Positions 31,676 to 44,343 of a DNA stretch of 64,000 nt are shown in pieces. The DNA is from Desulfuromonas sp. (GTDB lineage Bacteria; Desulfobacterota; Desulfuromonadia; Desulfuromonadales; UBA2294): the NCBI GenBank assembly GCA_002869615.1, contig PKUH01000106.1, forward strand, positions 6,158 to 70,157. The letters are read 5' to 3'. Below the pieces are notes generated by a model. That model saw only the letters and a program-made list of their open reading frames with translations, was not told the origin of the DNA and did not search any database. The translations under genes were made by a program, and so were the position numbers. The first letter of the stretch is position 1; the number at the start of each line of letters is the position of its first letter.

Positions 31676-33021
31676 GCGGCACCTCCCTTCAGGGCAGTGA
31701 CAAGCCGGTCGATATCCTTCCGGCGATGCTGCTCAGTGACACAAACCAGGAAATGATTCTCCATCCCGGTAAAGAAGCGTTCCAACGGAATACCGCCGAG
31801 AACCTTGTCACCTTCAAGTCGTTCCATCAGCTCCGACAGATCCTGATCGCAGGAGACAACGAATTCATTGAAGGTCGGGCCGCTGAAGGGAATTGTGAAT
31901 CCGGGAATGTCGGCGATCGCATTTTTGGCATATTCCGCCTTGGCCAGATTCTGTTCCGCTACTTCGCGAATCCCCTTTTTGCCCATCAGACAAAGATACA
32001 TATTGGCCATCAGAGCGCACATCCCCTGGTTCGAACAGATGTTCGAGGTCGCCTTTTCACGCCGGATATGCTGTTCACGGGTCGCCAGGGTCAATACGAA
32101 TCCGTTTTTCCCTTCGGTATCGGTGGTTGCGCCGACCAGACGGCCCGGCATCGAGCGAACGGTTTTCTGCCGGGCGGCAAAAAAACCGACCCCCGGACCG
32201 CCGAAGGAAACCGGCATACCGAAACTCTGGCCCTCGCCGATGACGATATCGGCCCCACCCTCGCCCGGCGATTTAAGCAGGCCGAGTGCAACCGGCTCCG
32301 GTACCGCCGTTACCAGCAGAGCGCCATCCTTGTGCACGGTTTCGGCCAGAGCCGAGATATCCTCGATAACGCCGAAGAAGTTCGGATACCCGATGACCAG
32401 AGCCGCAGTCTGTTCGTTGAGAGCAGCTGCGAGCGCATCCTGGTCAACCCGGCCATCCGCAAGATAAGGGATCTCCGCCAACTCCATCTCGAGGTAACGA
32501 CAGTAGGTCTCAACCGTTTGTCGATATTCGGGATGTAAAGAACCGGCAAGCAGCACTCTCTTGCGTCGGGTCGCCCGGGCCGCCATCAGTACGGCCTCGG
32601 CACAGGCCGAAGCACCATCGTACATCGACGCGTTGCTGACATCCATCCCGGTCAACTGGCAGATCAGGGTCTGGTATTCGAATATAGCCTGCAGGGTCCC
32701 CTGGCTGATTTCCTGCTGGTAGGGTGTGTAAGCGGTATAAAACTCACTACGCGACACCAGCTGGTCGATAACTGACGGAATAAAATGATTGTAAGCGCCA
32801 CCCCCGAGAAAAGAGAGGTACTCACTGACCGAGGCGTTCTCCGCAGCCATTTCCTGCAGTTGCCGCAGCAACTCACTTTCGGAAAGAGCTTCCGGAAGCT
32901 GCATCTGGCGGTCCAGACGAAGCTCGGCCGGCACCTCCTCGAAAAGGTCTTCAATTGATTGAACACCGATAGCTGCCAGCATCTGCCGGACATCTTCCTC
33001 GGTATGGGGGATATAGCGCAT
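31672..33021 (-). CDS. gcvPA: Glycine dehydrogenase (decarboxylating) subunit 1
   Basis: The start MRYIPHTEEDVRQML at 33021 avoids overlap with gcvH and follows a CAGGAG RBS. Family homology runs throughout. Confidence 0.93.
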   Translation of the reverse strand: MRYIPHTEEDVRQMLAAIGVQSIEDLFEEVPAELRLDRQMQLPEALSESELLRQLQEMAAENASVSEYLSFLGGGAYNHFIPSVIDQLVSRSEFYTAYTPYQQEISQGTLQAIFEYQTLICQLTGMDVSNASMYDGASACAEAVLMAARATRRKRVLLAGSLHPEYRQTVETYCRYLEMELAEIPYLADGRVDQDALAAALNEQTAALVIGYPNFFGVIEDISALAETVHKDGALLVTAVPEPVALGLLKSPGEGGADIVIGEGQSFGMPVSFGGPGVGFFAARQKTVRSMPGRLVGATTDTEGKNGFVLTLATREQHIRREKATSNICSNQGMCALMANMYLCLMGKKGIREVAEQNLAKAEYAKNAIADIPGFTIPFSGPTFNEFVVSCDQDLSELMERLEGDKVLGGIPLERFFTGMENHFLVCVTEQHRRKDIDRLVTALKGGAA

Positions 33022-33043
33022 ATCAAACTCCTGCTGGCGGCGA

Positions 33044-33430
33044 TTAGCTCTCTTCTTCGACAAAAGCCTGGTAGCCTTCCGCATCAAGCAGACCATCAAG
33101 TTCCGATGAATCAGTCAGCTTGATCTTGATCATCCAGCCATCCTCGTACGGAGAGGCATTAACCAGTTCCGGGGTGTCGGGCAGTTCATCATTAACTTCA
33201 ACAACTTCACCCGAAACGGGCGCATAGATATCGGAAACAGCCTTGACCGATTCAACAACGCCGAAGGATTTGCCGCATTCGACCGAAACGCCCTCCTCGG
33301 GAAGTTCAACGAATACAACATCACCCAATGCATCCTGGGCAAAATCGGTAATACCAACCGTTACGACATCATCTTCGATCGACAGCCATTCATGTTCTTC
33401 TGTGTACTTGAGATCTACAGGATAGTCCAT
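33044..33430 (-). CDS. gcvH: Glycine cleavage system H protein
   Basis: 128 aa with the lipoyl-lysine motif [16 protein letters not shown]. Confidence 0.95.
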
Positions 33431-33482
33431 ATTTTCCTCCTGATCGTTTGAGGTTCTCGTTTATTATGCTTAATACTTAAAG

Positions 33483-34358
33483 TTAATTCTGCCTGAGAAT
33501 TTCAGGGATTTTCGCCTCAAGGCCCAAGGTCATCAGATGGACTCCGTGGCACCGATCACGGGCAACGGAAACCATCTCCCGGGCAATTGCAACACCTTCG
33601 GCAAGCGGGTCTGAAGCCTTGTCAAGCCGCTCGATAATCGCCGCCGGAACCTTAACTCCCGGGATGTTGGCATTGAGAAAACGCGCCATCCGGGAGTTTT
33701 TCAACAACAGGACTCCGGCCAGAACAGGAACATTGAGCGGTCCGGCATCATCCATGAAATGTTCGAGTTTCTGACTGTCGAATACGGCCTGGGTCTGAAA
33801 GAACCGGGCCCCGGCCTCAATTTTTTTCCGGTACTTCTGAAACATCAGCTCAAACGGTTCCGACTCCGGATTGACTGCGGCACCGGGAAAAAACGCAGGA
33901 AGTCCCGCCAACTCCGTTCCCGACATGTCACACCCCTGCGCCAGGCTGTGTACCACCTGAAGGAGCTGTACCGAATCGAGATCAAAGACCGACCGTGCCT
34001 CGGGATGATCACCAAACCGGGTATGATCGCCCGAAAGTAACAGCAGGTTTTCGATACCGAGAGCAGCCGCCCCGAGCAGATCGGACTGCAGGGCCATGCG
34101 GTTGCGGTCACGGCAAGTTAACTGCAGAATCGGTTCGACCCCCGCTTCCGCCAATTTCCCGGCCAGGACCAGCGGGGTCATCCGCATGTTGGCGCCCTGA
34201 TTATCGGTAACATTGACCGCGGCAATTCCGTCAAAAGCGGCGGCGGTTGCGAGCGCTTCGGCCACAGCAACGCCTTTCGGCGGAGCGACCTCGGCCGTCG
34301 CGACAAACCGGCCGCCGGCCATTGCCTCCTGCAATCGTGACATCAATGACTCCCGCAA
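33483..34358 (-). CDS. metF: Methylenetetrahydrofolate reductase, MetF (acetogen-type catalytic subunit)
   Basis: 291-aa MTHFR TIM-barrel family (..ATAEVAPPKG.., ..NVTDNQGANMRM.., ..LQLTCRDRNR..). It sits directly downstream of a MetV-like gene. Confidence 0.85.
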   Translation of the reverse strand: MRESLMSRLQEAMAGGRFVATAEVAPPKGVAVAEALATAAAFDGIAAVNVTDNQGANMRMTPLVLAGKLAEAGVEPILQLTCRDRNRMALQSDLLGAAALGIENLLLLSGDHTRFGDHPEARSVFDLDSVQLLQVVHSLAQGCDMSGTELAGLPAFFPGAAVNPESEPFELMFQKYRKKIEAGARFFQTQAVFDSQKLEHFMDDAGPLNVPVLAGVLLLKNSRMARFLNANIPGVKVPAAIIERLDKASDPLAEGVAIAREMVSVARDRCHGVHLMTLGLEAKIPEILRQN

Positions 34359-34386
34359 GCCAAAAATCTGAGCCGGAATCGCATCG

Positions 34387-35034
34387 TTACTTCTTTATAT
34401 TGAATCGTCCCGGCTTGCGCCGCCGGTCCCAGTGTTTCGGGGCAACCGTACGGGCAAATACCCCGGAACGCTTTTGCTTTTTCAGCCGCTCGTAAATCAG
34501 GTGCCAGGCACAATCAATCTCGTGATCGACCTCGCATCGCCCCTCTTCCATGCCACCGCAGGGACCATTCAGCAAGCCCTTGGAACAATTGGTCACCGGG
34601 CAGATCCCGGCGGTATCATTGATGATGCAGTCACCGCAGAGTGAACATTTCTCCTCATACTGGCCAAAGCGTCTGATATTACCGAGAAACAGTGAATCGA
34701 GACCGCCGATCACCCGTTTGTCACTACTTGCAGAAATCGACTGGATGCCGGCGCCACAGGAGAGCACCAGCAGGGCATCGGCATCTTCGACCGCCTGCTT
34801 GTGATGACGCAGATCACGACCGGCCCGCATAATATGGCAAGCCTCATCGATAACAACACTTCCGGTCACATCACATTGAACCGCTTCAAGCCATTCCTGC
34901 ATCTGAAAGACTTCTTCCTCGCCACCCGATTTGCACGCCGTGGCGCAGGCCCCGCACCCGACCAGGAAAACCCGTTCGGCCCCGTCGAGAGCGGCGAGCA
35001 GTTCTTCGTTATTTTTCCGACTGCTGATAATCAT
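34387..35034 (-). CDS. metV: MetV-like zinc/Fe-S subunit (MTHFR C-terminal-domain protein)
   Basis: Cys-rich (GCGACATACKSGG, CSLCGDC, CPVTNCSKGLLNGPCGG). The start MIISSRKNNEEL at 35034 is 10 nt after the folD stop. Confidence 0.75.
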   Translation of the reverse strand: MIISSRKNNEELLAALDGAERVFLVGCGACATACKSGGEEEVFQMQEWLEAVQCDVTGSVVIDEACHIMRAGRDLRHHKQAVEDADALLVLSCGAGIQSISASSDKRVIGGLDSLFLGNIRRFGQYEEKCSLCGDCIINDTAGICPVTNCSKGLLNGPCGGMEEGRCEVDHEIDCAWHLIYERLKKQKRSGVFARTVAPKHWDRRRKPGRFNIKK

Positions 35035-35044
35035 TGAGTCAAGA

Positions 35045-35902
35045 CTAGCCCATGGCGGCGAGGCGACGCTTGGCCGCTTCAACCGTGTTATAAAGGAGCA
35101 TGGTAATCGTCATCGGACCGACACCACCCGGCACCGGGGTAATCGCACTGGCGTGGCGGCTCGCACCTTCGAAATCGACATCACCGACCAGTTTTTTCTC
35201 GCCCACCCGGTTGACACCGACATCGATAACGACCGCACCATCCTTGATCCAGTCACCCTTGACCATCTCCGGCCGGCCGACCGCGGCAATAACAACATCA
35301 GCCTGGCGCACCTTGTCAGCCAGATCACGCGTACGCGAATGACAGATCGTCACCGTCGCATGTTCTTCGAGGCACATCAGGGCCACCGGCTTGCCGACAA
35401 TATTGGAACGGCCAACGACGACGACCTCTTTCCCCTTGAGATCGACACCTTCAGCCTCAAACATCTTCATGACCCCATACGGAGTGCAGGGTTTGAACAG
35501 GGCGTTACCGGTCGCCAGGCGACCGACGTTGTACGGATGAAAACCGTCGGCATCCTTTTTGGGTGAAATCGCCTCGAGCACTTTCGCTTCATCGATCTGG
35601 TCCGGCAGTGGCAACTGAACCAGAATGCCGTCGATCCGCTCATCATTGTTCAACTCGTCAATCAGGGCGAGAAGCTGCTCTTCGCTGGTCTCGGCCGGCA
35701 GTTTATGCTCGTCGGAGAAAATGCCGCACTCCTCACAAGCCTTCTCCTTCATCGAGACATAGACCCGACTGGCCGGATCATCACCAACCAGAACCACAGC
35801 CAGCCCCGGAGTCACCCCTTTTTCCTTCAAGCCGGCAACATCATCCGATATTGCCCCTCGCAGATTCCTGGCGATCTGCTTGCCATCAATTATTTGCGCC
35901 AT
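35045..35902 (-). CDS. folD: Bifunctional methylene-THF dehydrogenase / methenyl-THF cyclohydrolase
   Basis: The start [11 protein letters not shown] at 35902 matches the canonical FolD N-terminus. Also [13 protein letters not shown] and [11 protein letters not shown]. Confidence 0.94.
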
Positions 35903-36071
35903 AATCCTAGATAAGACTCCTTTGAAAATGAACACCAAATATAAACAGATATAAGAGAGATTGTAAAGATGATAGGCAAGCCGGAACAAGCTTTTTGAAA
36001 AGAGCGGTTTGTCAATTTAAAAGAGAGTCTTTTGATGCAAGCTTCCGGGCGCGTCAACAGCTGCATTGAAC

Positions 36072-36098
36072 AAAGAAAAAGCCCCGGGATTCCGGGGC
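36072..36098 (-). terminator. Rho-independent terminator of the FmdB-like gene
   Basis: The minus strand reads GCCCCGG-AATC-CCGGGGC followed by TTTTTCTTT. Confidence 0.75.
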
Positions 36099-36131
36099 TC
36101 GAAACGTACCTAGAAAATGGTAAACATCAAC

Positions 36132-36377
36132 CTACTCGTTTGCCGCCTTGGGACAACCGGCGCAGGCCGGGCTCTTCTCGGAAGAGTCGCAGGACGGCTT
36201 TGGGCCATAACCCTGATCATACCAGCCATCGCCCTTGAGGGTAAAAGCTGTCTGGGAAATCAATTTCTGCACACTGCCGCCACACTCACGACATTCGGTG
36301 AGCGGTGCATCGGAAAATTTCTGGCGGGCTTCAAAAACCAGATCACAAGCGCTGCATTTGTATTCGTACATCGGCAT
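36132..36377 (-). CDS. FmdB-family (CxxC_CxxC_SSSS) zinc-ribbon protein
   Basis: MPMYEYKCSACDLVFE....LTECRECGG is the family hallmark. The start is probably the ATG at 36377, with GGAGG upstream. Confidence 0.85.
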   Translation of the reverse strand: MPMYEYKCSACDLVFEARQKFSDAPLTECRECGGSVQKLISQTAFTLKGDGWYDQGYGPKPSCDSSEKSPACAGCPKAANE

Positions 36378-36617
36378 GGTATTCAATGACCTCCATAAAA
36401 GTTCGGCGATAATCTAATAACTTGGCTCTGTTTTGTCAAGCCAATGAAGTAAAAAACAGGGCTAACGACGACATACCGCTTGCACAACAGCTGAAAAAAC
36501 ATTAATTTGAGGTAATTCTGATGCTTGATCTGTCGAATAAATTATGCTATTTTCCGTTGAATATCAACAAATTATACAATTGTCAGTTGCAATTACAACT
36601 TCCGGCAGGAGGGAAAG

Positions 36618-37247
36618 ATGATCCGTAAAGTTTGTACCATACTTATTATCCTGATCTGCGTCACCGCAACTTCAGCATTCGCATTTGACCAGGACTACAG
36701 AAAGTACCTGACCCTGGGTGGTGGCTTCACTTTGATGCAGGAGACCGATCAGAACCATGACGATTCGGTCACCTTTGTTAACCAGCCACTAACTATCAGC
36801 TCCGACAAGGGATTCAACGGTTTTCTCGCAACCGGCATGTCTTATGATGCCGGCCGGGTTGAGTTCTCACTGCATTACAACCAGGCAGAGTTCGAAGAAT
36901 TCAAAGACTCTCTCGGGGCAACGACCAATCTTGAAGGTAATCTGAAATTCGTCTCATTTCTGATGAGCGTTTTTTGGGAATTCAACAAGGACGGCATCAT
37001 GTCTCCATACTTTGGTGGTGGCATTGGCGCCTGCCATATCAAGATGGATGATTCAACCCTCGGCGAGAACCGGGATGGTGCTGCCGTTATTCAGCTCGGT
37101 ATCGGCCTGAATTTCAATATCAGCGAGAACCTTGAGTTAGATCTCGGCTACAAGGCTATGAGCGTCGTGGAGCCGAACCTCGGACCGATCAACCCGAGCT
37201 ACCTGACAACGCACAACGGTAATCTTGCTTTCCGCTTCCTCTACTAG
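36618..37247 (+). CDS. Small outer-membrane beta-barrel protein (OmpA-like barrel / OmpW-size)
   Basis: Signal peptide ending SAFA, alternating amphipathic strands and a C-terminal aromatic terminus AFRFLY. GGAGGGAAAG RBS. Confidence 0.7.
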   Translation: MIRKVCTILIILICVTATSAFAFDQDYRKYLTLGGGFTLMQETDQNHDDSVTFVNQPLTISSDKGFNGFLATGMSYDAGRVEFSLHYNQAEFEEFKDSLGATTNLEGNLKFVSFLMSVFWEFNKDGIMSPYFGGGIGACHIKMDDSTLGENRDGAAVIQLGIGLNFNISENLELDLGYKAMSVVEPNLGPINPSYLTTHNGNLAFRFLY

Positions 37248-37274
37248 TCGACATAAAACAATATGAATTTTCTG

Positions 37275-37304
37275 ACGGGCAGCCATAACAGCTGCCCGTT
37301 TTTT
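37275..37304 (+). terminator. Rho-independent terminator
   Basis: ACGGGCAGC-CATAACA-GCTGCCCGT followed by TTTTT. Confidence 0.85.
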
Positions 37305-37387
37305 ATGAGAGAGCTCTCACGACCGTTGACAACCCGTTATCGAACATGCTACCTCTTGAATTCAGCTTTTTGAATATTAATTATACT

Positions 37388-37483
37388 GGGAGTAGTTCGT
37401 AGTCTGGTGACGCGCTCGGTCTTCAAAACCGATGGGGGGCGTATCCCGTCCCCGGTGGGTTCGATTCCCATCTGCTCCCGCCA
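37388..37483 (+). tRNA. selC: tRNA-Sec (anticodon UCA), bacterial 8/5 fold
   Basis: Hand fold of 96 nt: 8-bp acceptor GGGAGTAG/CTGCTCCC, 6-bp D stem with 4-nt loop (CGT(A)GTC-TGGT-GACGCG), anticodon loop CTTCAAA, 7-bp long variable arm GGGGGCG-TATCC-CGTCCCC, 5-bp T stem GTGGG-TTCGATT-CCCAT, discriminator G, encoded CCA. Confidence 0.93.
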
Positions 37484-37503
37484 ATAGAAAAGGAAGCATT
37501 GTT

Positions 37504-37773
37504 ATGCTGCCACCGAAACAGCACGAAAAGTACTGCAACTTCTACGATGCGGTCCGTGACGAATCGAACCTCGACAGGAAAACGACCATCCTGGTCGGGC
37601 TCGCTTCGGCCATGGCGATCGGCTGCGAACCATGAATCGAGCACTACCTTGGCGTTGCCAGGGACGACAACATCTCGAAAGAAGAAATCGGCGCCACCCA
37701 GGGGATTGTCATTGCGGTCGCGGCCGGCAAGGTCAATGCCCTGATGAAAAAAGCCGAAACGAATTCAGAATAG
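37504..37773 (+). CDS. AhpD-like / carboxymuconolactone-decarboxylase-family selenoprotein. The in-frame UGA at 37633-37635 is read as Sec.
   Basis: Translation is MLPPKQHEKY...LASAMAIGCEP-U-IEHYLGVARDDNISKEEIGATQGIVIAVAAGKVNALMKKAETNSE*. The UGA occupies the second Cys position of the family CxxC..H redox motif. CMD-like similarity continues after the UGA. A hairpin lies 11 nt downstream. The ORF track stops at the UGA. Confidence 0.85.
37647..37663 (+). other. Candidate bacterial SECIS hairpin for the AhpD-like gene
   Basis: CCUUGGC-GUU-GCCAGGG (7 bp including one G:U). The stem starts 11 nt after the UGA, and the loop begins with G about 18 nt from the UGA. Confidence 0.55.
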
Positions 37774-37803
37774 CTGAACTTCCATTCTACTCCGGAGGTG
37801 AAG

Positions 37804-39213
37804 ATGTCTGACCGCCGGAACCTGCTCAAAACCCTCCCTGCCATAGACAAAATACTGCACGCGCCCGAGATGATCACGCTGGCCGAAACCTGCCCGCACG
37901 TGCTGCTGGTTGAAGCAGCTCAGCGGACGGTCGATGACTTGCGAAGACAGATTCTCGATGAAAAAATGCCGGCACCGGAGTGCACGCCTGAAATCGTTGC
38001 CAAAAAAGCGCTCGCAATTGCGGAAAAGCTGAATACTCCCTCACTGCAGAAAGTGATCAACGTTACCGGCACCCTGCTCCATACCAACCTCGGGCGAGCC
38101 CCGCTCTGCCAGGCAGCCCTTGCGGCGATGCAGGAAGTCTCGGCCGGGTACTCGAATCTCGAATACGATCTCGATGCCGGTCAACGGGGCAAGCGCTTCC
38201 GCCATGTCGAAGACCTGATCTGCCGCCTGACCGGGGCCGAGGCGGCGACGGTGGTCAACAACAACGCCGGTGCCGTCCTGCTGGCGCTTGCCGCCCTTGC
38301 CGGAGAGAAAGAAGCGCTCGTCTCCCGCGGCGAGTTGATCGAAATCGGCGGTTCGTTCCGCATCCCCGACATCATGGCGGCCGGAAACGTCAGACTGGTC
38401 GAAGTCGGAACCACCAACAAGACCCATCTTGAGGACTACCGCAGGGCGATCACAGCCGATACGGCGCTGATCCTGAAAGTCCATACCAGCAACTACCGCA
38501 TTGTCGGATTTACCGAAGCGGTTCCGGGCAGCGCCCTGGCCGACCTCGGCCGGGAAAAGGGCGTCACTGTACTCGAAGACCTCGGCAGCGGACTGCTGAT
38601 CGATCTGTCAGATTACGGCCTGCCGCCGGAACCGACAGTCGGTGAAGCGTTGAAGACCGGGATAGATGTACTGACATTCAGCGGCGACAAGCTCCTCGGC
38701 GGACCGCAGGCCGGTATTATCGTTGGCCGCAAAGAGTGTATTGAGCGGATACGCAAACACCCGATGGCCCGGGCCCTGCGTATCGACAAGATGACCCTGG
38801 CGGCGATCGAAGCGACCTTGCGTCTTTACCTCGATCCGGAGCAGGCACTGCGCGAAATCCCGACCCTGCGGATGCTGGCGCAGCATGATGACCAGTTAAA
38901 GGTAAAAAGCGAGCAGCTGATCGAGAAACTAATGAAAGAACTGAACGGGGCATGCAGCATGGAATTAATCTCGACACTGGCTACGGTTGGCGGCGGCGCC
39001 CTGCCGCTGGCCGAGCTTCCCGGCTTCGGTATTGCCCTCAAACCGAAAACGATCTCGCCGAACCGGCTGGCCGAAAACCTCCGGCAGTCGATACCACCGG
39101 TTATCGGCCGGATCCAGAACGAATATTTCATTATCGACCCACGGACTCTAGCCGTAGATGAAGAGCCCCTGCTCTGCCAATCTCTGGCGAATGCCTTAAG
39201 GATAACCGACTGA
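37804..39213 (+). CDS. selA: L-seryl-tRNA(Sec) selenium transferase
   Basis: PLP-lysine context FSGDKLLGGPQAG and family homology throughout. The ATG at 37804 follows GGAGG. The ORF-track start at 37798 is a GTG inside the spacer. Confidence 0.94.
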   Translation: MSDRRNLLKTLPAIDKILHAPEMITLAETCPHVLLVEAAQRTVDDLRRQILDEKMPAPECTPEIVAKKALAIAEKLNTPSLQKVINVTGTLLHTNLGRAPLCQAALAAMQEVSAGYSNLEYDLDAGQRGKRFRHVEDLICRLTGAEAATVVNNNAGAVLLALAALAGEKEALVSRGELIEIGGSFRIPDIMAAGNVRLVEVGTTNKTHLEDYRRAITADTALILKVHTSNYRIVGFTEAVPGSALADLGREKGVTVLEDLGSGLLIDLSDYGLPPEPTVGEALKTGIDVLTFSGDKLLGGPQAGIIVGRKECIERIRKHPMARALRIDKMTLAAIEATLRLYLDPEQALREIPTLRMLAQHDDQLKVKSEQLIEKLMKELNGACSMELISTLATVGGGALPLAELPGFGIALKPKTISPNRLAENLRQSIPPVIGRIQNEYFIIDPRTLAVDEEPLLCQSLANALRITD

Positions 39214-39215
39214 CC

Positions 39216-41129
39216 ATGGCGCCGCCCGAACGACACCATATTATCGGCACGGCCGGTCATGTCGACCACGGCAAAACCGAATTGATCCGGGCCCTGACCG
39301 GGACCGACACCGATCGCCTGCAGGAAGAAAAGGCGCGCGGCATCTCCATCGATCTCGGCTTTGCCCCGTTCAGACTTCCGGACGGCTCGGTGGCCGGTGT
39401 CGTCGATGTTCCGGGTCACGAACGTTTTATTCACAATATGCTCGCCGGCGTCGGCGGAATCGATCTGGTGCTGCTGGTTATCGATGTTCAGGAAGGGATC
39501 ATGCCGCAAACCCGTGAGCACCTGCAGATCCTCGAACTGTTGCAAATCCAACAGGGAATCATTGTCCTGACCAAGTGCGATCTCGCCGAAGATGACTGGA
39601 TCGATATTGTCGAAGAAGAGGTCCGTGAAGAGCTACAGGAAACATTCCTCGAACATGCTCCCTTCTGCCGGGTTTCGTCAATCAGCGGCAGCGGCATTGC
39701 GGAGCTGAAGGAGCAGATCGCCAAAATCCTCAGGCAGGTCGAATCGAAGGATTGCGATGGCCCCCTGCGCCTGCCGATTGATCGCCATTTCAGTGTCGCC
39801 GGTTTCGGCACCGTTGTCACCGGCACCCTGCTCTCGGGCCGCATCAACACCGGCGTTACCACCGAGCTGCTGCCGCCCGGAATCGAAGCCCGGATCCGTG
39901 AAATTCAGGTGCATGGCAAGAAGGTCGAGGCCGCAGCCGCCGGGCAGAGGGTTGCTCTAAACCTCGCCGGCGTTGACCGCGCCAAGTTGAAAAGGGGAGC
40001 GGTGATCGGTACGCCCGGAATCTTTGAACAGACCGAAATGATCGACGTCCGGCTCAACCTTCTGCCGGGCGCTCCGCGGACTCTCAAGTTCCGTGATCCG
40101 GTCCACTTTTACCTCGGTACCGCCCGGGTCGTTGGAATCGTAGCCCTCCTCGACCGCGATGAACTCAAACCTGGTGAAACCGCCATCGTTCAGATCCATC
40201 TCGATCGGCCCCTGGTCGCCCATCGCCAGGATCGATTTATCGTCCGTTCCTATTCGCCGATGACCACCATTGGCGGCGGCATGATCATCGATCCGGGACC
40301 GGCCAAGCACAAACGTTTTCGTGATGAGGTCATGCAGACCCTCTCCGAGCTCGAATCGGGTGAGACCTCGTTCCTGTTGCAGAAAATCAGTGAACTGACC
40401 GGCCCGAAAGTCAAGGAGCTTGAGCAGGCCTCCGGCCTCGGTCGGGAAAGGATCGAGGACCACCTCGAGAGACTGGCAGAAGATGGCACGGTCATCCGGC
40501 TTGGCGATCAGTGGTTGACCGGAGAGACGGTTCGCGCCTGGGAGCGACTGCTGCTTGAACGATGCACCCGGTTCCACGCGGACAACCCGCTCCTCAACGG
40601 CATTCCGCTGGCAACCCTGAAAGGGATTTTGCCGCACCCCCTGGCTGCCAAGGGGTTTGATGCACTGCTCAACCGGCTCGAAGAGCGTGGTGAGCTGACG
40701 CGGCGTCTCGACAACGCGGCTCTGCCCGGTTTCCGGCCGGAACCATCACCTGAGCAAAAGAAAAACATCGACGCCATCCTGAAAAACTACGAGGACGCCG
40801 GGGCATTAGCCAAAAACCGGACGGAAATGCTGGCCCGGCTCAATCTGAGTGAAGCCGAGGCAAACGATTGCCTGGGCTACCTGTTTGCCGAAGGGCTTTT
40901 GATCCGCTTGAATGACGAAAACTTTTTTCATCATAAAACTTTTGATTTCGCCATCTCGCTGCTCCGTGATAAATTTGCCGATAGAGAGTTCAGCCTTGCC
41001 GAGTTTCGCGATGAACTCGGCAGTGCCCGCAAGGCGGTCCAGGCTTTACTCGAATACTTTGACGCGCAGAAATACACGATGCGCAAAGGTGATGTCAGGG
41101 TCGCATGGAAACTGCCCGAAAAAACTTAG
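39216..41129 (+). CDS. selB: Selenocysteine-specific elongation factor
   Basis: G-domain motifs GHVDHGKT, DVPGHERF and TKCD, plus a long C-terminal winged-helix extension. 637 aa. Confidence 0.94.
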   Translation: MAPPERHHIIGTAGHVDHGKTELIRALTGTDTDRLQEEKARGISIDLGFAPFRLPDGSVAGVVDVPGHERFIHNMLAGVGGIDLVLLVIDVQEGIMPQTREHLQILELLQIQQGIIVLTKCDLAEDDWIDIVEEEVREELQETFLEHAPFCRVSSISGSGIAELKEQIAKILRQVESKDCDGPLRLPIDRHFSVAGFGTVVTGTLLSGRINTGVTTELLPPGIEARIREIQVHGKKVEAAAAGQRVALNLAGVDRAKLKRGAVIGTPGIFEQTEMIDVRLNLLPGAPRTLKFRDPVHFYLGTARVVGIVALLDRDELKPGETAIVQIHLDRPLVAHRQDRFIVRSYSPMTTIGGGMIIDPGPAKHKRFRDEVMQTLSELESGETSFLLQKISELTGPKVKELEQASGLGRERIEDHLERLAEDGTVIRLGDQWLTGETVRAWERLLLERCTRFHADNPLLNGIPLATLKGILPHPLAAKGFDALLNRLEERGELTRRLDNAALPGFRPEPSPEQKKNIDAILKNYEDAGALAKNRTEMLARLNLSEAEANDCLGYLFAEGLLIRLNDENFFHHKTFDFAISLLRDKFADREFSLAEFRDELGSARKAVQALLEYFDAQKYTMRKGDVRVAWKLPEKT

Positions 41130-41146
41130 CCAAACGAGGATGATAA

Positions 41147-42184
41147 ATGTCTGGACAGGTCAAGTTGACCAGCCTTTCACGCACCAGTGGTTGAGCCGCC
41201 AAACTGGCCCCCGAGCCGCTGGCGCAGGTGCTGCGTCAGTTACCGAAAACTGAAGATCCCAATCTGTTGACGGCCGGGATTCTCTTTGCCGACGCCGGAG
41301 TTTACCGGATAGCGGACGATTGCGCCCTTGTCCAGTCGGTCGATTTCTTTACGCCGATTGTCGATGATCCGGCGACCTTCGGCCGCATCGCCGCCGCCAA
41401 TGCCCTGTCCGATATCTATGCGATGGGCGGCAAACCAATTACGGCCCTCAACATGGTCGGCTTCCCGAAATGCCTCGATCACGGCATTCTCGTCGAGATC
41501 CTCAAGGGGGGGGCTGAAAAAGCCGCCGAAGGGGGAACCATTATCGTCGGCGGCCATACCGTAGAAGACGATGAACCAAAATACGGCCTGGCAGTGACCG
41601 GACTGATTCACCCCGACAGCATGATCACGACCGCTGGAGCCCAGCCGGGCGACGTTCTGATTCTGACCAAACCGCTCGGTACCGGCATCCTGGCAACAGC
41701 ACTCAAGGGCGAGGTTCTCACCGAGGTGGATATTGCTGAAGCGATTGCCGGGATGGAATCTCTCAATCGCGATGCATCCGAAGCGATGCTGGCCGTCGGA
41801 GTCAATGCCTGTACCGACATTACCGGCTTCGGTTTTCTCGGTCACGCCATCGAAATGGCTGAAGCAAGCTCGGTCTGCATTGAAATTTCAGCCGAAAAAC
41901 TTCCGGTCTATCCACGCGTCCGCGAGATGGCTGCGATGGGGATGATCCCGGCCGGCAACCGGCGGAACCGCAACTATTACTGGCCGAAAGTTCTCGACGG
42001 CCACGTACCGACAACCGACATCATCGACCTTGTCTCCGATCCGCAGACCTCGGGAGGGCTGCTGATATCGGTTGCCGCCGACAAAAAAGAACAATTGATC
42101 CAGCTTCTTGCCAACAAAGGGGTCGATGCCCGCATCGTCGGCGTTATATCATGCGGACGGCCGGGAACGGTCAGAATCGAGTAA
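41147..42184 (+). CDS. selD: Selenophosphate synthetase, Sec-containing form. The in-frame UGA at 41192-41194 is codon 16.
   Basis: The N-terminus extends upstream of the ORF-track start: MSGQVKLTSLSRTSG-U-AAKLAPEPLAQVLRQLPK.... The UGA sits at the position of the catalytic Cys/Sec in the SelD glycine-rich N-terminal loop. The rest is a PurM-like fold (DDPATFGRIAAANALSDIYAMGG). Confidence 0.88.
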
Positions 42185-42199
42185 AGACTTCACCTTTCA

Positions 42200-43885
42200 T
42201 TATTGAGAAGAGCTGCTTTTGCCAAGCCTGAGGTAGGCGAATTGTTGAGCCGCGTACAAATCCCTGTTCATTCCTGATGTCTGCTCCATAAATGCAATAT
42301 CCTTCAAAACATCCCGATAAATCACTGACCTGTTTTTAATTTCAGGTAATTTAGAATTGGGGAACGCGTTTCTTCTTAGAAAAACCATGGAAACTTCGTC
42401 ATGGTAAACAAAACTCCACTCAGGAGTTTGCCATAAATAATCTGTTAATTTGTACAACTCACCGGTAAAAGGGTTTAGTCTCGGAACCAGGATAATATCA
42501 ATCTGATTTGAATCCAGAATCCTTTTCGTTTTATCAGGCAGCCACAACACACGCGTATAGGCGTCGAAAAGACGAAGGTTCAAACTTCTGCCATCGATAA
42601 ATGTGACAAGCTGTCCCGGTGCATGCCATGCCAAGTAGCCCCCCCAATTAAAATGGTTAAAAATATTTCCTGACAACTCATGGGATTGCAAGAATGCGAC
42701 AGCTTCTTCCGGGAACCGTCTTTCATTCACAGGGTTTTCCGACAACACACGGTAACTTTCCGAAACCTGGCGTACAGCCTGCCACGCCAGGAGGACTATC
42801 AGTGACAGGGTCACTCCGGCAGTAAATACTTTCAAGGTATTATTCTCACGACGCCTGATTTCATACTTATCAAAGATGAAAACGACAAAACCACTGATGA
42901 AAAACGGAGCGTAACGAAAAGCCGTCGTACTGACGAGAAACAAAAAAGAGACAATGGCGAGTTTGGTTAATGATATTTTCAGTCTGTTTAAGAACAGAAT
43001 TGCAATAAAAAGGAAAAGAGCGAAAAAATATGGCCAGTAGACCAGAATATCTCTTTTCGCAAGAACAAAGGGCGACAGGTATTCCGATGATTTCTGTTGA
43101 ATCAGCCCCCCTTGGGACTGGATAAACTGCATGTAAATATTGAGTCCGTTCGGATTAAGGAGAGTTGAAAAAATTGCAAGAACGATAATCCCCCATAAAA
43201 TCATGAGTCTTTTTTTAGGGTTGCCGCTGTGAAGTATACTACCACTTTCAAATACAATGAAAAGAGCGAGAACAGCAACCCCAAGGAGAAAACCACCGTG
43301 CAGGTTGGCCCATAGCAGCATAAACGGTGGAAGGAGTATTGCCGCTCGCAAATTGTATTGCTTCTTTTCATCCATCTCCGCAGAAAAACCGACTGCTGCC
43401 AGGAGTATGAAAAATATTGGGACTAATAGCAAAGTCAAATGATTCGGCCTCAGACCGGGAACATAGACCAGCCCCCATCCCAAAAGCAGTGAAGCTAGGA
43501 TCGCGACTTCGAAGCTGATATTACGGATGCGGAAATATAAAAAGGTAACAACAATGGGTAAAGAGATGAGGACAGCGCGAAAGATAACCATGCCCTGTTC
43601 AGCACTAAAGATGAAAACCTTATAAAGTATAATCTGGGAAAGCCAATAGCCGTTCAGAATTATCTCACGATCTGGAGAAATAGCTCGACCGGCCAGACCG
43701 AAAGGATCATGATTCAACAGGGATCCGGTTTGACAGATATGCCGTCCTGTCGCGAGATGCCACCAGATGTCGATGTCCGAGATCGGTTCAATAGCTAAGA
43801 TGAAAAAACTTGCAGTAACGACTATCAGGCCGACCACCTGGAGAGGGTGATTGATCTGGCTATATTTTCCAATAAGCTTTTTCAC
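42200..43885 (-). CDS. Polytopic membrane protein, possibly a GT-C-fold glycosyltransferase-like protein, with a C-terminal soluble domain. Function unknown.
   Basis: 561 aa with about 12 predicted TM helices. An acidic motif (ISDIDIWWHL) follows TM1, as in GT-C enzymes. The C-terminal domain of about 190 aa contains FNHFNWGGYLAW...FIDGR. The gene is visibly more A/T-rich than its neighbours. Confidence 0.45.
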   Translation of the reverse strand: MKKLIGKYSQINHPLQVVGLIVVTASFFILAIEPISDIDIWWHLATGRHICQTGSLLNHDPFGLAGRAISPDREIILNGYWLSQIILYKVFIFSAEQGMVIFRAVLISLPIVVTFLYFRIRNISFEVAILASLLLGWGLVYVPGLRPNHLTLLLVPIFFILLAAVGFSAEMDEKKQYNLRAAILLPPFMLLWANLHGGFLLGVAVLALFIVFESGSILHSGNPKKRLMILWGIIVLAIFSTLLNPNGLNIYMQFIQSQGGLIQQKSSEYLSPFVLAKRDILVYWPYFFALFLFIAILFLNRLKISLTKLAIVSFLFLVSTTAFRYAPFFISGFVVFIFDKYEIRRRENNTLKVFTAGVTLSLIVLLAWQAVRQVSESYRVLSENPVNERRFPEEAVAFLQSHELSGNIFNHFNWGGYLAWHAPGQLVTFIDGRSLNLRLFDAYTRVLWLPDKTKRILDSNQIDIILVPRLNPFTGELYKLTDYLWQTPEWSFVYHDEVSMVFLRRNAFPNSKLPEIKNRSVIYRDVLKDIAFMEQTSGMNRDLYAAQQFAYLRLGKSSSSQ

Positions 43886-43932: not shown

Positions 43933-44343
43933 TCAGAGATCCCCTGTTAATTTCTGAAGCCTGAACAATTTCGGATTCAGGATTTTGACACATTCAACAA
44001 TATCCTGCAAACCCTGTTCATCAACCCTCTCTTCCTCATCTTTCCCTTGAAACCAGGCATACCCTTTCGGCAATTCAGAGGGTCGGCCGCCGCGCATCAA
44101 CATTACGTCAACCATCTCGTTCACCCGACCCTCTGCTTCCCAGGGATCACGATAATCATATTGCCGAGCGATAATGTTGAGCATCAAACCATTCGGAAAT
44201 TGCGCCCGCACCTCGAACGAATATTCGCGCGGCGCGCTGTAATTATCGGTTCGGCCACTGCGCGACATCGCCCGGGCACCGGCCGCGTCAAGCATTTCCT
44301 TGACCGTCTCCTCGGTCATCGGTTTTTGTTCGGTCATTAACAA
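43933..44343 (-). CDS. Hypothetical protein (136 aa)
   Basis: ORF only. I recognise no motif. Codon usage looks native. Confidence 0.4.
   Translation of the reverse strand: MLMTEQKPMTEETVKEMLDAAGARAMSRSGRTDNYSAPREYSFEVRAQFPNGLMLNIIARQYDYRDPWEAEGRVNEMVDVMLMRGGRPSELPKGYAWFQGKDEEERVDEQGLQDIVECVKILNPKLFRLQKLTGDL

What the first reader, a model, noticed from the sequence alone, without database searches (positions are those of the whole stretch)
37504..37773. In-frame UGA in an AhpD-like (CMD-family) ORF placed at the redox CxxC position, giving a C-E-P-U motif
The listed ORF (37432-37635) ends at a TGA, but the same frame continues for 45 more codons. These read IEHYLGVARDDNISKEEIGATQGIVIAVAAGKVNAL, which matches the second half of small carboxymuconolactone-decarboxylase/AhpD-like proteins. 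The TGA replaces the second Cys of the family CxxC...H motif (AIGCEP-U-IEH). A 7-bp hairpin with a G-first loop starts 11 nt after the UGA, which is SECIS-like geometry. AhpD-like selenoproteins have been reported in computational selenoproteome surveys. This one is unusual in being wired directly to selC and selAB.
Basis: partly seen in the sequence, partly recalled or inferred. Interest (0 to 1): 0.7.

Follow-up and report, generated by a model that had tools for sequence, protein, structure and literature searches.

The report
Small AhpD-like selenoprotein heading sel operon
The in-frame UGA is a real selenocysteine codon in an 89-residue AhpD/CMD-type redox protein, a known kind of selenoprotein. 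What is less ordinary is that in one clade of Desulfuromonadales the gene always sits just upstream of the selenocysteine-machinery genes selA-selB-selD, often right after the selenocysteine tRNA gene selC.

Summary
The ORF at 37504-37773 has an in-frame TGA at codon 44 (37633-37635). Read through, it matches Pfam CMD (E=1.7e-10) on both sides of the TGA.

Among 96 homologous loci that cover this codon, it is TGA in 89, TGC (Cys) in 6 and TTA in 1. More distant full-length relatives mostly carry CxPC. Sequence after the TGA is under purifying selection as strong as before it (pN/pS 0.34 vs 0.31).

A 7-bp hairpin with a G-U-N triloop starts 11 nt after the UGA and meets all published bacterial SECIS rules. 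All 7 pairs form in 84 of 89 TGA loci, with compensatory changes, and rare codons are locked in the stem (Leu49 CTT 82/87, Arg53 AGG 66/66). The Cys-codon homologues have lost the hairpin.

selC, selA, selB and a Sec-containing selD flank the gene.

CMD-domain CxxU selenoproteins have been known since 2005, so this is a new, unannotated member of a known kind. Public records call it a 43-aa hypothetical protein.

The less ordinary result is a monophyletic clade (50 loci, the window's own among them) in which the gene always lies 30-84 nt upstream of selA and carries a clade-specific Cys11. Sister clades sit next to hslO, arsM/arsC or hgcA/hgcB. A dedicated role in selenium handling or sel-operon regulation is possible but not shown.

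The parts
37274..37300 (+). Intrinsic-terminator-like hairpin plus T-run after the upstream outer-membrane-protein gene. It marks the 5' boundary of the sel transcription unit.
   Evidence: 10-bp stem with 7 GC pairs and a TTTTAT tail. No + strand terminator-like site was found between here and 42600.
37388..37483 (+). selC, the tRNA-Sec gene (anticodon TCA), ending 20 nt before the start codon of the selenoprotein gene.
   Evidence: ARAGORN. Rfam RF01852, 75.8 bits, E=1e-14. The same juxtaposition, with gaps of 19-60 nt, occurs in 9 related loci.
37490..37496 (+). Shine-Dalgarno-like AAGGAAG, 7 nt upstream of the ATG.
   Evidence: Read directly from the sequence.
37504..37773 (+). 89-codon CMD/AhpD-like selenoprotein gene: M1 ... 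C11 ... C41-E-P-U44-I-E-H47 ... stop TAG.
   Evidence: Translation. Pfam CMD, E=1.7e-10, spanning residues 8-79. Orthologues in 96 loci. pN/pS is 0.31 before and 0.34 after the UGA.
37534..37536 (+). Codon for Cys11, a third cysteine specific to the selA-linked clade.
   Evidence: Cys in 98% of 48 selA-linked sequences; the commonest residue is Arg in the Hsp33-linked clade and Gly in the third clade.
37624..37626 (+). Codon for Cys41, the first residue of the CxxU redox motif.
   Evidence: Invariant in all three clades and in the more distant relatives. Aligns with the first Cys of CxxC in PDB CMD proteins.
37633..37635 (+). UGA codon 44, read as selenocysteine.
   Evidence: TGA in 89, TGC in 6 and TTA in 1 of 96 homologous loci. 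Aligned with Cys in most of the more distant full-length relatives.
37647..37663 (+). SECIS hairpin: 7-bp stem CCUUGGC/GCCAGGG with a GUU triloop. The loop starts 21 nt from the U of UGA.
   Evidence: Energy is -9.4 kcal/mol for the hairpin alone. In the 16-sequence alignment, 100% of cells are paired against 25-61% in slid controls, and 2 pairs show double changes. All 7 pairs form in 84 of 89 TGA loci, but only 2-5 of 7 in the 6 TGC loci. Codons are locked: CTT in 82/87 Leu49 and AGG in 66/66 Arg53, against background frequencies of 10-11% and 6-8%.
37804..39213 (+). selA (L-seryl-tRNA(Sec) selenium transferase), 30 nt after the selenoprotein stop codon, with its own GGAGG Shine-Dalgarno. 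It ends in TGA.
   Evidence: TIGR00474, 606.7 bits. Pfam SelA, E=1.4e-157. Spacer analysis. Stop codon.
39216..41129 (+). selB, the selenocysteine-specific elongation factor.
   Evidence: TIGR00475, 381.5 bits. SelB winged-helix domains found in Pfam.
41147..42184 (+). selD (selenide, water dikinase), itself a selenoprotein. It has an in-frame UGA at 41192-41194 (SG-U-AAKL) and a 10-bp hairpin with a GUG triloop at 41218-41240.
   Evidence: TIGR00476, 343 bits, for the part from 41228 onward. The sequence was read across the TGA. Hairpin fold.

Best explanation
The ORF at 37504-37773 is a genuine selenoprotein gene encoding an 89-residue, single-domain CMD/AhpD-fold protein. Its CxxC redox motif is C41-E-P-U44.

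How the UGA is decoded (inferred from sequence and comparison). During translation, the hairpin at 37647-37663 (7 bp, G-U-N triloop) is bound by SelB-GTP-Sec-tRNA(Sec). This delivers selenocysteine to UGA codon 44 in place of termination.

What the protein does (inferred by homology). By analogy with AhpD-type CxxC proteins, the selenolate of U44 is the attacking nucleophile. Its target would be a peroxide or other thiol-reactive oxidant, or an oxidised partner cysteine. C41 then resolves the adduct as a selenenyl-sulfide, which a thiol reductant recycles.

How it is expressed (inferred from layout). The gene is the first ORF of one co-directional unit, selC - CMD(U) - selA - selB - selD(U). 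The unit is bounded upstream by a terminator. Spacers inside it are 20 and 30 nt and hold no terminator, so the protein is made together with the machinery it depends on.

Shown here: the gene is real, the UGA is conserved and interchanges with Cys, the hairpin covaries and occurs only with UGA, the fold is CMD, and the synteny is conserved. Inferred: Sec insertion itself, co-transcription and the catalytic chemistry.
For: - In-frame TGA with an intact downstream frame.
- Pfam CMD above its cut-off and spanning the TGA.
- PDB CMD proteins 3bey, 1vke and 7y4r align their CxxC with C41/U44.
- The AF2 model of the 70%-identical orthologue P0001 has pLDDT 94. Its best PDB fold matches are all CMD/AhpD proteins, TM 0.81-0.83 to 3bey.
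- Codon 44 is TGA in 89, TGC in 6 and TTA in 1 of 96 loci.
- More distant relatives mostly carry CxPC. The protein libraries hold many fragments that stop at residue 43 or start at residue 45, which is the signature of gene callers splitting a Sec gene.
- pN/pS after the UGA is 0.34, against 0.31 before it.
- The hairpin is 100% paired with compensatory double changes, while slid controls give 25-61%.
- The hairpin is kept in 84 of 89 TGA loci and lost in all 6 TGC loci.
- The rare codons CTT (Leu49) and AGG (Arg53) are fixed in the stem.
- All four published bSECIS criteria are met (criteria from PMC13188914, read; values).
- selC, selA, selB and selD are adjacent.
- selD in the same cluster carries its own UGA followed by a hairpin with the same G-U-N triloop.
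- TGA is an ordinary stop in this genome: selA ends in TGA, as do 19 of 46 long ORFs.
- Synteny with selA holds in 50 loci that form one clade.
Against: - There is no experimental evidence of selenium incorporation for this family.
- Single-sequence folding of the 71-nt region is not better than shuffles (z=0.26). Support for the hairpin is comparative, not thermodynamic.
- No Rfam family matched the hairpin.
- One orthologue (L005, identical to L001, a Desulfuromonas sp. MAG) has TTA (Leu) at the Sec codon with an intact hairpin. This could be a sequencing error or a decaying copy.
- The His after the motif is at +3 (CxxUxxH), not +4 as in the aligned PDB CMD proteins. It is conserved in only 62-85% of sequences, so AhpD-type catalysis is not guaranteed.
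- The protein falls below the cut-off of every NCBIfam model, so no curated functional family covers it.
Confidence: 0.9

Rival explanations
1. The protein is dedicated to selenium handling. The selA-linked clade would be a selenium carrier or reductase rather than a general oxidant-detoxifying enzyme. It would use C11, C41 and U44 to bind or reduce selenium species (selenotrisulfide, perselenide) and hand selenide to the Sec-containing SelD encoded in the same operon.
For: - The gene sits immediately upstream of selA-selB-selD in a monophyletic clade across substantial divergence: CMD identity is 57-82% and SelA identity 59-72%.
- That clade alone has a conserved third Cys, C11, in 98% of sequences.
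- Sister-clade members sit next to other soft-metal(loid) genes: arsR-arsM-CMD(U)-arsC in L095, arsM in L084, L088 and L094, hgcA in L080 and hgcB in L091.
- The best NCBIfam hits are the AhpD domains of ArsM- and methyltransferase-fused selenoproteins.
- Redox partners predicted to generate the SelD substrate have precedent, e.g. the NADH oxidoreductase linked to SelD (PMC2432076).
Against: - The argument is purely by genomic association.
- A second sister clade sits next to hslO (Hsp33), which points to general thiol and oxidant stress.
- No MAG in the genome scan carried both a selA-linked and an Hsp33-linked copy. The position may therefore reflect one relocation of the same gene, not a new function.
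- Selenoprotein genes are known to travel with sel genes simply because the trait needs a client (PMC1794560).
Confidence: 0.2
2. The ORF doubles as a sensor of selenocysteine capacity for the sel operon. The outcome at its UGA/SECIS (Sec insertion versus termination, or SelB complex binding to the hairpin) would tune expression of the downstream selA-selB-selD. This would be analogous to the SECIS-like element in the E. coli selAB 5' UTR that binds SelB-GTP-Sec-tRNA and represses selAB.
For: - A functional-looking SECIS lies on the same transcript, upstream of selA, in every member of the clade.
- The spacer to selA is short and nearly fixed in length, with a mode of 45 nt.
- There is no terminator between the genes.
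- Precedents are the E. coli SECIS-like autoregulation and a proposed selC-selAB regulatory link in mycobacteria (PMC13449736; PMC8124441).
Against: - The hairpin is about 140 nt upstream of the selA Shine-Dalgarno and lies inside a translated ORF. In E. coli it is 3 nt from the SD (PMC13449736), so direct occlusion is not possible.
- selA has its own strong GGAGG SD, and no conserved structure was seen in the spacer.
- The same UGA and hairpin occur in the Hsp33-, ars- and hgc-linked clades, where no sel genes follow.
- The protein is under purifying selection along its whole length, so its existence needs no regulatory explanation.
- Polarity after failed Sec insertion would lower SelA/B/D exactly when more is needed.
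Confidence: 0.12
3. The TGA is a true stop. The locus would then be a 43-residue peptide gene or a pseudogene, with the downstream similarity a decaying remnant or a separately initiated ORF.
For: Gene callers and NCBI annotate exactly this: 43-aa 'hypothetical protein' entries in Desulfuromonadales MAGs and P0002. One orthologue carries a non-Cys, non-Sec codon (TTA).
Against: - The downstream 45 codons stay in frame and free of stops in all loci, with pN/pS 0.34.
- The TGA has held the same codon in 89 loci spanning 50-82% protein identity.
- No in-frame start codon is conserved after the TGA: the next codon is variously ATC, GTC, ATG, CTG or GTG.
- A half CMD domain would not fold.
Confidence: 0.02
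4. UGA is reassigned genome-wide (to Trp or Gly, as in genetic codes 4 and 25), so codon 44 is not selenocysteine.
For: Two distant library homologues are recorded with W at the aligned position (P0003, P0023). This is what a code-4 translation of TGA would give.
Against: - selA in the same cluster ends in TGA at the position where homologues end, and 19 of 46 long ORFs in the window end in TGA.
- In most orthologous loci the same gene uses TGA as its real stop, 45 nt before selA.
- A complete selC/selA/selB/selD set is adjacent.
- The aligned residue in non-TGA homologues is Cys, not Trp or Gly.
Confidence: 0.01

Closest known systems
CMD domain-containing selenoprotein / 'AhpD-like 2' (Pfam PF02627, CxxU motif), from the Sargasso Sea and GOS selenoproteome surveys (PMC1088965, PMC2398784; listed in the 2026 review PMC13188914)
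   Same: Same Pfam domain and same CxxU motif, with Sec at the second position. Both are small redox-type proteins with abundant Cys homologues and a bacterial SECIS directly after the UGA.
   Different: I could not compare sequences with the published representatives, so subfamily identity is untested. The papers read here do not describe a sel-operon location, a clade-specific Cys11, or the ars/hgc/hslO neighbourhoods of relatives.
Mycobacterium tuberculosis AhpD and small hexameric CMD proteins (PDB 1knc/1gu9; O27018 3bey; TM1620 1vke/1p8c; P. aeruginosa RclX 7y4r)
   Same: All-helical CMD fold: TM 0.81-0.83 to 3bey and 0.78-0.79 to RclX. The CxxC motif aligns with C41/U44 at the start of a helix. 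RclX is an AhpD-like CxxC protein needed for resistance to HOCl and HOSCN (PMC7950407).
   Different: These proteins have Cys, not Sec. The query has only four helices in 89 residues. Its His is at +3 after the second redox residue, not +4. No peroxiredoxin partner gene is nearby.
GSU3128 family 'distant AhpD homolog' (seleno)protein of Geobacter (NCBIfam NF041047; PMC1794560)
   Same: A small (84-aa) CxxU selenoprotein of the same bacterial order, distantly CMD-like.
   Different: It scores 21.6 bits against a 110-bit cut-off, so this protein is not a member.
ArsM/AhpD-domain selenoprotein (NF041537) and MduS (NF045649)
   Same: These are the best NCBIfam matches (E=1e-15 and 8e-15), aligned to their C-terminal AhpD domains that carry CxxU. 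Free-standing relatives of the query sit next to arsM.
   Different: The query has no methyltransferase domain and scores far below their cut-offs (57 against 510 bits).
E. coli selAB 5'-UTR SECIS-like autoregulatory element (as described in PMC13449736)
   Same: A SelB-recognisable hairpin on the sel mRNA, upstream of selA.
   Different: Here the hairpin is a working SECIS inside a conserved coding ORF, about 140 nt from the selA Shine-Dalgarno rather than 3 nt. No regulatory effect has been shown.
selC-selAB co-transcription in mycobacteria (PMC13449736) and selCAB operons (PMC8124441)
   Same: The tRNA-Sec gene lies directly upstream of, and on the same strand as, the sel protein genes.
   Different: Here a selenoprotein ORF is inserted between selC and selA. 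In mycobacteria, the species with an intervening hypothetical gene showed no read pairs linking selC and selA.

Membership tests
Bacterial selenoprotein gene (UGA-Sec plus bSECIS) | An in-frame UGA conserved at the same codon in orthologues, with the coding frame conserved downstream | tested here: met
   TGA in 89 of 96 loci. The downstream 38 codons carry no stops in frame, with pN/pS 0.34.
Bacterial selenoprotein gene (UGA-Sec plus bSECIS) | A Sec/Cys pair: homologues carry Cys at the aligned position | tested here: met
   TGC in 6 loci. CxPC in most full-length relatives at 30-50% identity. PDB CMD proteins align their CxxC here.
Bacterial selenoprotein gene (UGA-Sec plus bSECIS) | bSECIS model: 4-16 bp upper stem, 3-9 nt apical loop, G in the first two loop positions, 16-37 nt from UGA to loop, MFE at or below -7.5 kcal/mol (criteria from PMC13188914) | tested here: met
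   7-bp stem; 3-nt GUU loop; the loop starts 21 nt from the U of UGA (18 nt lie between the UGA and the loop); -9.4 kcal/mol for the hairpin alone and -10.5 for the 45-nt stretch from the UGA. Covariation, and loss of the hairpin in Cys forms.
Bacterial selenoprotein gene (UGA-Sec plus bSECIS) | The genome encodes selC, selA, selB and selD | tested here: met
   All four lie in the same cluster.
Bacterial selenoprotein gene (UGA-Sec plus bSECIS) | Selenium is incorporated into the protein | not testable with these tools
   Needs 75Se labelling or mass spectrometry.
Pfam CMD (PF02627) / AhpD-like fold | HMM score above the gathering threshold | tested here: met
   41.2 bits against 23; residues 8-79 match profile positions 5-77 of 84.
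Pfam CMD (PF02627) / AhpD-like fold | All-helical CMD fold | tested here: met
   The model is of the 70%-identical orthologue P0001, because the window sequence with U replaced by C was not accepted. It has pLDDT 94.1 and four helices. The top PDB matches are all CMD/AhpD proteins, TM 0.81-0.83.
AhpD-type alkylhydroperoxidase (catalytic definition) | CxxC redox pair at the N-terminus of a helix | tested here: met
   C41 and U44; helix 3 spans residues 42-54 in the model. C41 is invariant.
AhpD-type alkylhydroperoxidase (catalytic definition) | Conserved His (and Glu) of the proton relay at the family positions | tested here: inconclusive
   His47 is at +3, not +4, relative to the aligned PDB proteins. 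It is His in only 62-85% of sequences per clade. The Glu was not mapped.
AhpD-type alkylhydroperoxidase (catalytic definition) | Peroxidase activity or AhpC-reducing activity; a partner peroxiredoxin | not testable with these tools
   No peroxiredoxin gene was seen among the ORFs annotated between 30.2 kb and 45.8 kb of the window. Activity needs biochemistry.
GSU3128 family (seleno)protein, NF041047 | Score above the curated cut-off | tested here: not met
   21.6 bits against 110.
ArsM/AhpD-domain selenoprotein NF041537 and MduS NF045649 | N-terminal methyltransferase domain fused to the AhpD domain; score above the cut-off | tested here: not met
   Only the C-terminal AhpD domain aligns, at 57.4 bits against 510 and 54.6 against 380. 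The protein is 89 residues long.
E. coli-type selAB SECIS-like autoregulatory element | A SelB-binding hairpin immediately adjacent to the selA Shine-Dalgarno in an untranslated leader | tested here: not met
   The hairpin lies inside an ORF, about 140 nt upstream of the selA SD. The spacers show no conserved hairpin.

The most novel reading that the evidence does not exclude
The selA-linked clade of this CMD(CxxU) protein, marked by its own conserved Cys11, would be an unrecognised fifth component of the selenocysteine system in Desulfuromonadales. It could be a selenium-handling reductase or carrier that feeds the Sec-containing SelD. Alternatively or in addition, it could be a UGA/SECIS-bearing leader ORF through which the cell gauges Sec-decoding capacity and adjusts selA-selB-selD. 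More broadly, free-standing CMD(CxxU) modules would be soft-metal(loid) handling domains, recruited separately to the selenium (sel), arsenic (arsM/arsC) and mercury (hgcAB) pathways.
Probability: 0.2. Interest if true: 0.7.

Novelty: new member of a known kind. Interest (0 to 1): 0.45.

Why it matters
On its own this adds one more correctly read selenoprotein to a family known since 2005, and it corrects a systematic mis-annotation. Public records list the gene as a 43-residue hypothetical protein.

The more useful result is comparative. A monophyletic set of at least 50 environmental Desulfuromonadales loci keeps this gene between selC and selA, so one compact unit carries the tRNA, the synthase, the elongation factor, the selenium donor enzyme and two client selenoproteins. 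That fits, and extends, the published idea that the Sec trait persists and moves together with a client selenoprotein (PMC1794560).

Three observations give a concrete, testable lead on function: the clade-specific Cys11, the arsenic- and mercury-methylation neighbourhoods of sister clades, and the position of a working SECIS on the sel mRNA. The lead is that some small AhpD-like selenoproteins act in metalloid handling or in control of Sec capacity rather than in generic peroxide defence.

The family also provides a clean natural example of a minimal SECIS (7 bp plus a GUN triloop), with matched Cys homologues that have lost it.

Tried and rejected
- Single-sequence folding of 37630-37700 gave an MFE no better than shuffles (z=0.26). 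Thermodynamics alone cannot validate so short a hairpin, so I relied on comparative evidence.
- An Rfam scan of 36000-43000 at E<=10 found only tRNA-Sec and noise. No SECIS family matched.
- The first word-index protein search returned only 2 hits, because Sec genes are split or truncated in protein libraries. The DNA-level locus scans were what worked.
I modelled the 70%-identical orthologue P0001 with an alignment instead.
- I looked for an E. coli-like SECIS-like hairpin or a terminator in the CMD-to-selA spacer across 48 loci. There was none, only a strong GGAGG.
- I looked for a second CMD copy, hslO or the ABC-2 permease gene in the window. None was found.
- I considered in-frame reinitiation after the TGA and rejected it. 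The following codon is not a conserved start, and the ATG that overlaps the TGA (37632) is out of frame and not conserved.
- I considered genome-wide UGA reassignment and rejected it.
- Two papers by Haft and co-workers, on selenoprotein neighbourhoods and on organometallic/methylmercury selenoproteins (PMC12013261, PMC9879109), are not held. I cannot exclude that they mention this neighbourhood.
- No paper in the searchable library links a CMD selenoprotein to selA or selC.
- The promoter scan found no consensus sigma-70 site upstream of selC, so the transcription start is undetermined.
Full report
**1. The observation**

From the ATG at 37504 the frame reads 43 codons, a TGA at 37633-37635, and 45 further sense codons to a TAG at 37771-37773. 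The product is MLPPKQHEKYCNFYDAVRDESNLDRKTTILVGLASAMAIGCEP-U-IEHYLGVARDDNISKEEIGATQGIVIAVAAGKVNALMKKAETNSE.

The mechanical ORF 37432-37635 starts inside the tRNA gene. Homologues all begin at the equivalent of 37504, and an AAGGAAG Shine-Dalgarno lies 7 nt upstream. The hairpin CCUUGGC-GUU-GCCAGGG occupies 37647-37663, starting 11 nt after the UGA.

The neighbours are as follows:
- tRNA-Sec at 37388-37483 (ARAGORN; Rfam RF01852, 75.8 bits)
- selA at 37804-39213 (TIGR00474, 607 bits)
- selB at 39216-41129 (TIGR00475, 382 bits)
- selD at 41147-42184 (TIGR00476, 343 bits)

**2. Is the read-through product a real protein of the claimed family?**

With U written as C, the 89-mer matches Pfam CMD (PF02627) at E=1.7e-10, 41.2 bits against a 23-bit cut-off. 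The match covers residues 8-79 and so spans both sides of the TGA.

Against PDB sequences, the small CMD proteins 3bey (O27018), 1vke/1p8c (TM1620) and 7y4r (RclX) align their CxxC exactly with C41/U44.

An AlphaFold model of the 70%-identical orthologue P0001, built with a 31-sequence alignment, has mean pLDDT 94. It has four helices, and the motif sits at the start of helix 3. Its best PDB fold matches are all CMD/AhpD proteins, with TM 0.81-0.83 to 3bey and 0.78-0.79 to RclX.

No NCBIfam model reaches its cut-off. The best partial hits are the C-terminal AhpD domains of the ArsM/AhpD and MduS selenoproteins. The Geobacter GSU3128 'distant AhpD' family scores 21.6 bits against 110.

**3. Comparative test of the UGA**

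A genome scan gave 16 loci, all Desulfuromonadales, Geobacteraceae or related MAGs. A metagenome scan gave 80 more. Mapping codon 44 in each gave TGA in 89, TGC in 6 and TTA in 1; one further locus was truncated before the codon.

The 38 codons after the UGA have no in-frame stop in any of 15 sequences. Their pN/pS of 0.34 matches the 0.31 found upstream.

An exhaustive HMMER search of 1.8 billion representatives, using the orthologue as query, found two kinds of hit. Full-length relatives at 30-50% identity mostly carry C-x-P-C at the motif. Many other entries are fragments that end at residue 43 or begin at residue 45, which is what gene callers produce from a Sec gene. Cluster look-up shows the N-terminal fragments are deposited as 43-aa 'hypothetical protein' in Desulfuromonadales MAGs.

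TGA is an ordinary stop in this genome. selA ends in TGA, as do 19 of 46 long ORFs. In most orthologous loci the same gene also ends in TGA.

**4. The hairpin is a SECIS**

On a 16-sequence ungapped alignment, the 7 proposed pairs are 100% standard pairs, against 25-61% when the 3' arm is slid by 1-3 columns. Two pairs show changes on both sides.

Across all loci, all 7 pairs form in 84 of 89 TGA-containing sequences. Most of the rest have 6; one, which contains Ns, has 5. Variants include CCUCAGC/GCUGAGG, CCUUAGC/GCUAAGG, CUUUGGC/GCCAAAG and UCUUGGC/GCCGAGA, and the loop is G-U-N in all but one. In these variants an amino-acid change on one arm is compensated by a synonymous change on the other.

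In the six TGC (Cys) homologues only 2-5 of the 7 pairs can form, and the loop reads CAG, CAA or GAG.

Synonymous sites in the stem are frozen. Leu49 is CTT in 82 of 87 cases and Arg53 is AGG in 66 of 66. CTT makes up 10-11% of Leu codons and AGG 6-8% of Arg codons in the sel genes of the same loci.

The element satisfies each published bSECIS constraint: stem of 4-16 bp, loop of 3-9 nt, G in the first two loop positions (usually followed by G or U), 16-37 nt from the UGA, and MFE at or below -7.5 kcal/mol (PMC13188914, read). The values here are 7 bp, a GUU loop, 21 nt and -9.4 kcal/mol.

selD provides an internal control. It has its own in-frame UGA (41192-41194, SG-U-AAKL) followed by a 10-bp hairpin with a GUG triloop (41218-41240). 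Single-sequence thermodynamics of the 71-nt region is not significant, and Rfam has no match. The case for the SECIS rests on comparison.

**5. Genomic setting**

A strong terminator-like hairpin at 37274-37300 closes the upstream outer-membrane-protein gene. No + strand terminator-like site occurs between selC and the end of selD. The spacers are 20 nt (selC to ATG), 30 nt (stop to selA ATG, with a GGAGG), 2 nt (selA to selB) and 17 nt (selB to selD).

Across the related loci the gene falls into context classes:
- selA within 30-84 nt downstream in 50 loci (the window's own among them), with a mode of 45 nt in the 48 where the spacer could be measured
- an ABC-2 permease gene upstream and hslO (Hsp33) downstream in 21 loci
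- other contexts in 16 loci
- too little flank to tell in 9 loci

A neighbour-joining tree places all selA-linked genes in one clade, the Hsp33-linked genes in a second, and the rest, including all Cys forms, in a third.

In the selA-linked clade, tRNA-Sec is found upstream in 18 of 44 loci with enough flank, and within 150 nt in 13 of them. No conserved hairpin or terminator occurs in the spacer before selA.

Members of the third clade sit in arsR-arsM-CMD(U)-arsC (L095), after arsM (L084, L088, L094), after hgcA (L080, a Cys form) or after hgcB (L091). These neighbours were confirmed with NCBIfam above their cut-offs.

Position-by-position comparison shows a cysteine at residue 11 in 98% of the selA-linked clade and not in the others.

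No MAG in the genome scan carried two copies, and the window has no second copy.

**6. Mechanism**

The best-supported reading has three parts.

(i) Decoding. SelB-GTP-Sec-tRNA(Sec) binds the 37647-37663 hairpin and inserts Sec at codon 44. This is inferred from items 3 and 4 and from the general bacterial mechanism summarised in PMC13188914.

(ii) Chemistry. The product is a small CMD-fold oxidoreductase whose C41/U44 pair cycles between the selenol/thiol and selenenyl-sulfide states. In M. tuberculosis AhpD the second Cys of the CxxC is the attacking nucleophile; this is from my own knowledge of the AhpD literature and was not checked here. That would fit Sec occupying this position. The nearest characterised small homologue, RclX, protects P. 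aeruginosa against HOCl and HOSCN (PMC7950407). The hslO neighbourhood of the sister clade points the same way. The His is offset by one position and is incompletely conserved, so AhpD-type catalysis is plausible but not established.

(iii) Expression. The gene is co-expressed with selC and selA-B-D as the first ORF of the unit. This is inferred from the layout. Co-transcription of selC with selAB has experimental precedent in mycobacteria (PMC13449736).

**7. Rivals**

A true stop or pseudogene, and genome-wide UGA reassignment, are effectively excluded (items 3 and 4).

Two more interesting additions remain open. The first is a dedicated selenium-handling role. It is supported only by the strict sel linkage, Cys11 and the arsenic and mercury neighbourhoods of relatives.

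The second is a regulatory role of the UGA/SECIS for the downstream sel genes. It is suggested by analogy with the E. coli selAB leader (PMC13449736, PMC8124441). Four things weaken it: the 140-nt distance to the selA Shine-Dalgarno, the independent SD, the absence of spacer structure, and the presence of the same UGA/SECIS in clades with no sel genes downstream.

The simplest account of the linkage is that a client selenoprotein gene became fixed inside the sel cluster. This is in line with the observation that sel genes tend to be accompanied by a selenoprotein gene (PMC1794560).

**8. Known or new?**

CMD-domain proteins with CxxU were reported as a selenoprotein family in the Sargasso Sea survey (PMC1088965). 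They appear as 'AhpD-like 2, pfam02627, CxxU' in the GOS survey (PMC2398784) and are tabulated in the 2026 review (PMC13188914).

The kind is therefore known. This subfamily is not covered by any NCBIfam model, is deposited only as truncated hypothetical proteins, and comes only from MAGs and metagenomes. I found no paper describing its conserved placement between selC and selA. Two potentially relevant papers by Haft and co-workers are not held.

**9. Verdict**

This is a real, correctly interpreted selenoprotein gene and a new member of a known kind. It has a modestly novel, well-supported comparative feature, the clade-wide position at the head of the sel operon together with a clade-specific Cys11. 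That feature deserves an experiment but does not yet show a new mechanism.

Noticed in passing
window 41147-42184 (UGA at 41192-41194; hairpin 41218-41240): selD is itself a selenoprotein gene. The ATG at 41147 is followed by ...TSG-U-AAKL..., and a 10-bp hairpin with a GUG triloop follows the UGA. The mechanical ORF list starts the gene at the GTG at 41228, which is actually the hairpin loop. The loop is the same G-U-N type as in the CMD(U) gene.
   Followed up: partly
L005 (identical to L001) 1597-1599, Desulfuromonas sp. BM302 MAG, GCA_002868925.1: This is the only orthologue with TTA (Leu) at the Sec codon. Its SECIS hairpin is perfectly intact and selA lies downstream, but no tRNA-Sec lies upstream. 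It is the only family member annotated full-length in NCBI ('carboxymuconolactone decarboxylase family protein'). It may be an assembly error or a very recent inactivation.
   Followed up: partly
L095 3573-5763; L084, L088, L094; L080 3478-5773; L091 1046-1682: Relatives of the CMD(CxxU/CxxC) protein sit inside arsenic and mercury gene clusters. L095 has arsR-arsM-CMD(U)-arsC. L084, L088 and L094 have arsM directly upstream. In L080, hgcA lies upstream of a Cys form and a CsoR/RcnR-type repressor gene lies downstream. In L091, hgcB lies directly upstream of a Sec form.
   Followed up: partly
L011-L016, L060, L064, L066, L069, L070, L073, L074, L076, L079, L081, L085, L087, L093, L096 and L067: A second clade of the same selenoprotein is always flanked by an ABC transporter (ATPase plus ABC-2 permease) upstream and hslO (the redox-regulated chaperone Hsp33) downstream, followed by nuo genes in several loci. 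Cys69 is present in 60% of this clade.
   Followed up: partly
window 37534-37536 (Cys11): A third cysteine is conserved in 98% of the selA-linked clade and absent from the sister clades. Its position relative to the C41/U44 site in the oligomer is unknown.
   Followed up: partly
window 37483-37504, and L003, L004, L019 and other loci: The tRNA-Sec 3' CCA end lies only 19-29 nt from the start codon of the selenoprotein gene in 7 loci, so the Shine-Dalgarno sits almost against the tRNA. If the two are co-transcribed, tRNA 3' processing would create the mRNA 5' end.
   Followed up: no
window 30209-35989 (- strand): Upstream of the sel cluster lies a one-carbon metabolism block on the opposite strand: the two glycine-cleavage P-protein subunits, MTHFR with its C-terminal partner domain protein, and FolD.
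   Followed up: no
window 42200-43885 and 43933-44343 (- strand): Two ORFs convergent with selD, of 561 aa and 136 aa, have no Pfam match at E<=1e-5. The next gene (44584-45804) is a DUF2201 putative metallopeptidase/VWA-like protein.
   Followed up: no
P0003 and P0023 (representative library): Two distant homologues are recorded with Trp at the position aligned to U44 (GCYHW..., GCEPW...). This probably reflects TGA translated under genetic code 4 or 25 by the depositing pipeline, so they may be further hidden Sec forms.
   Followed up: no
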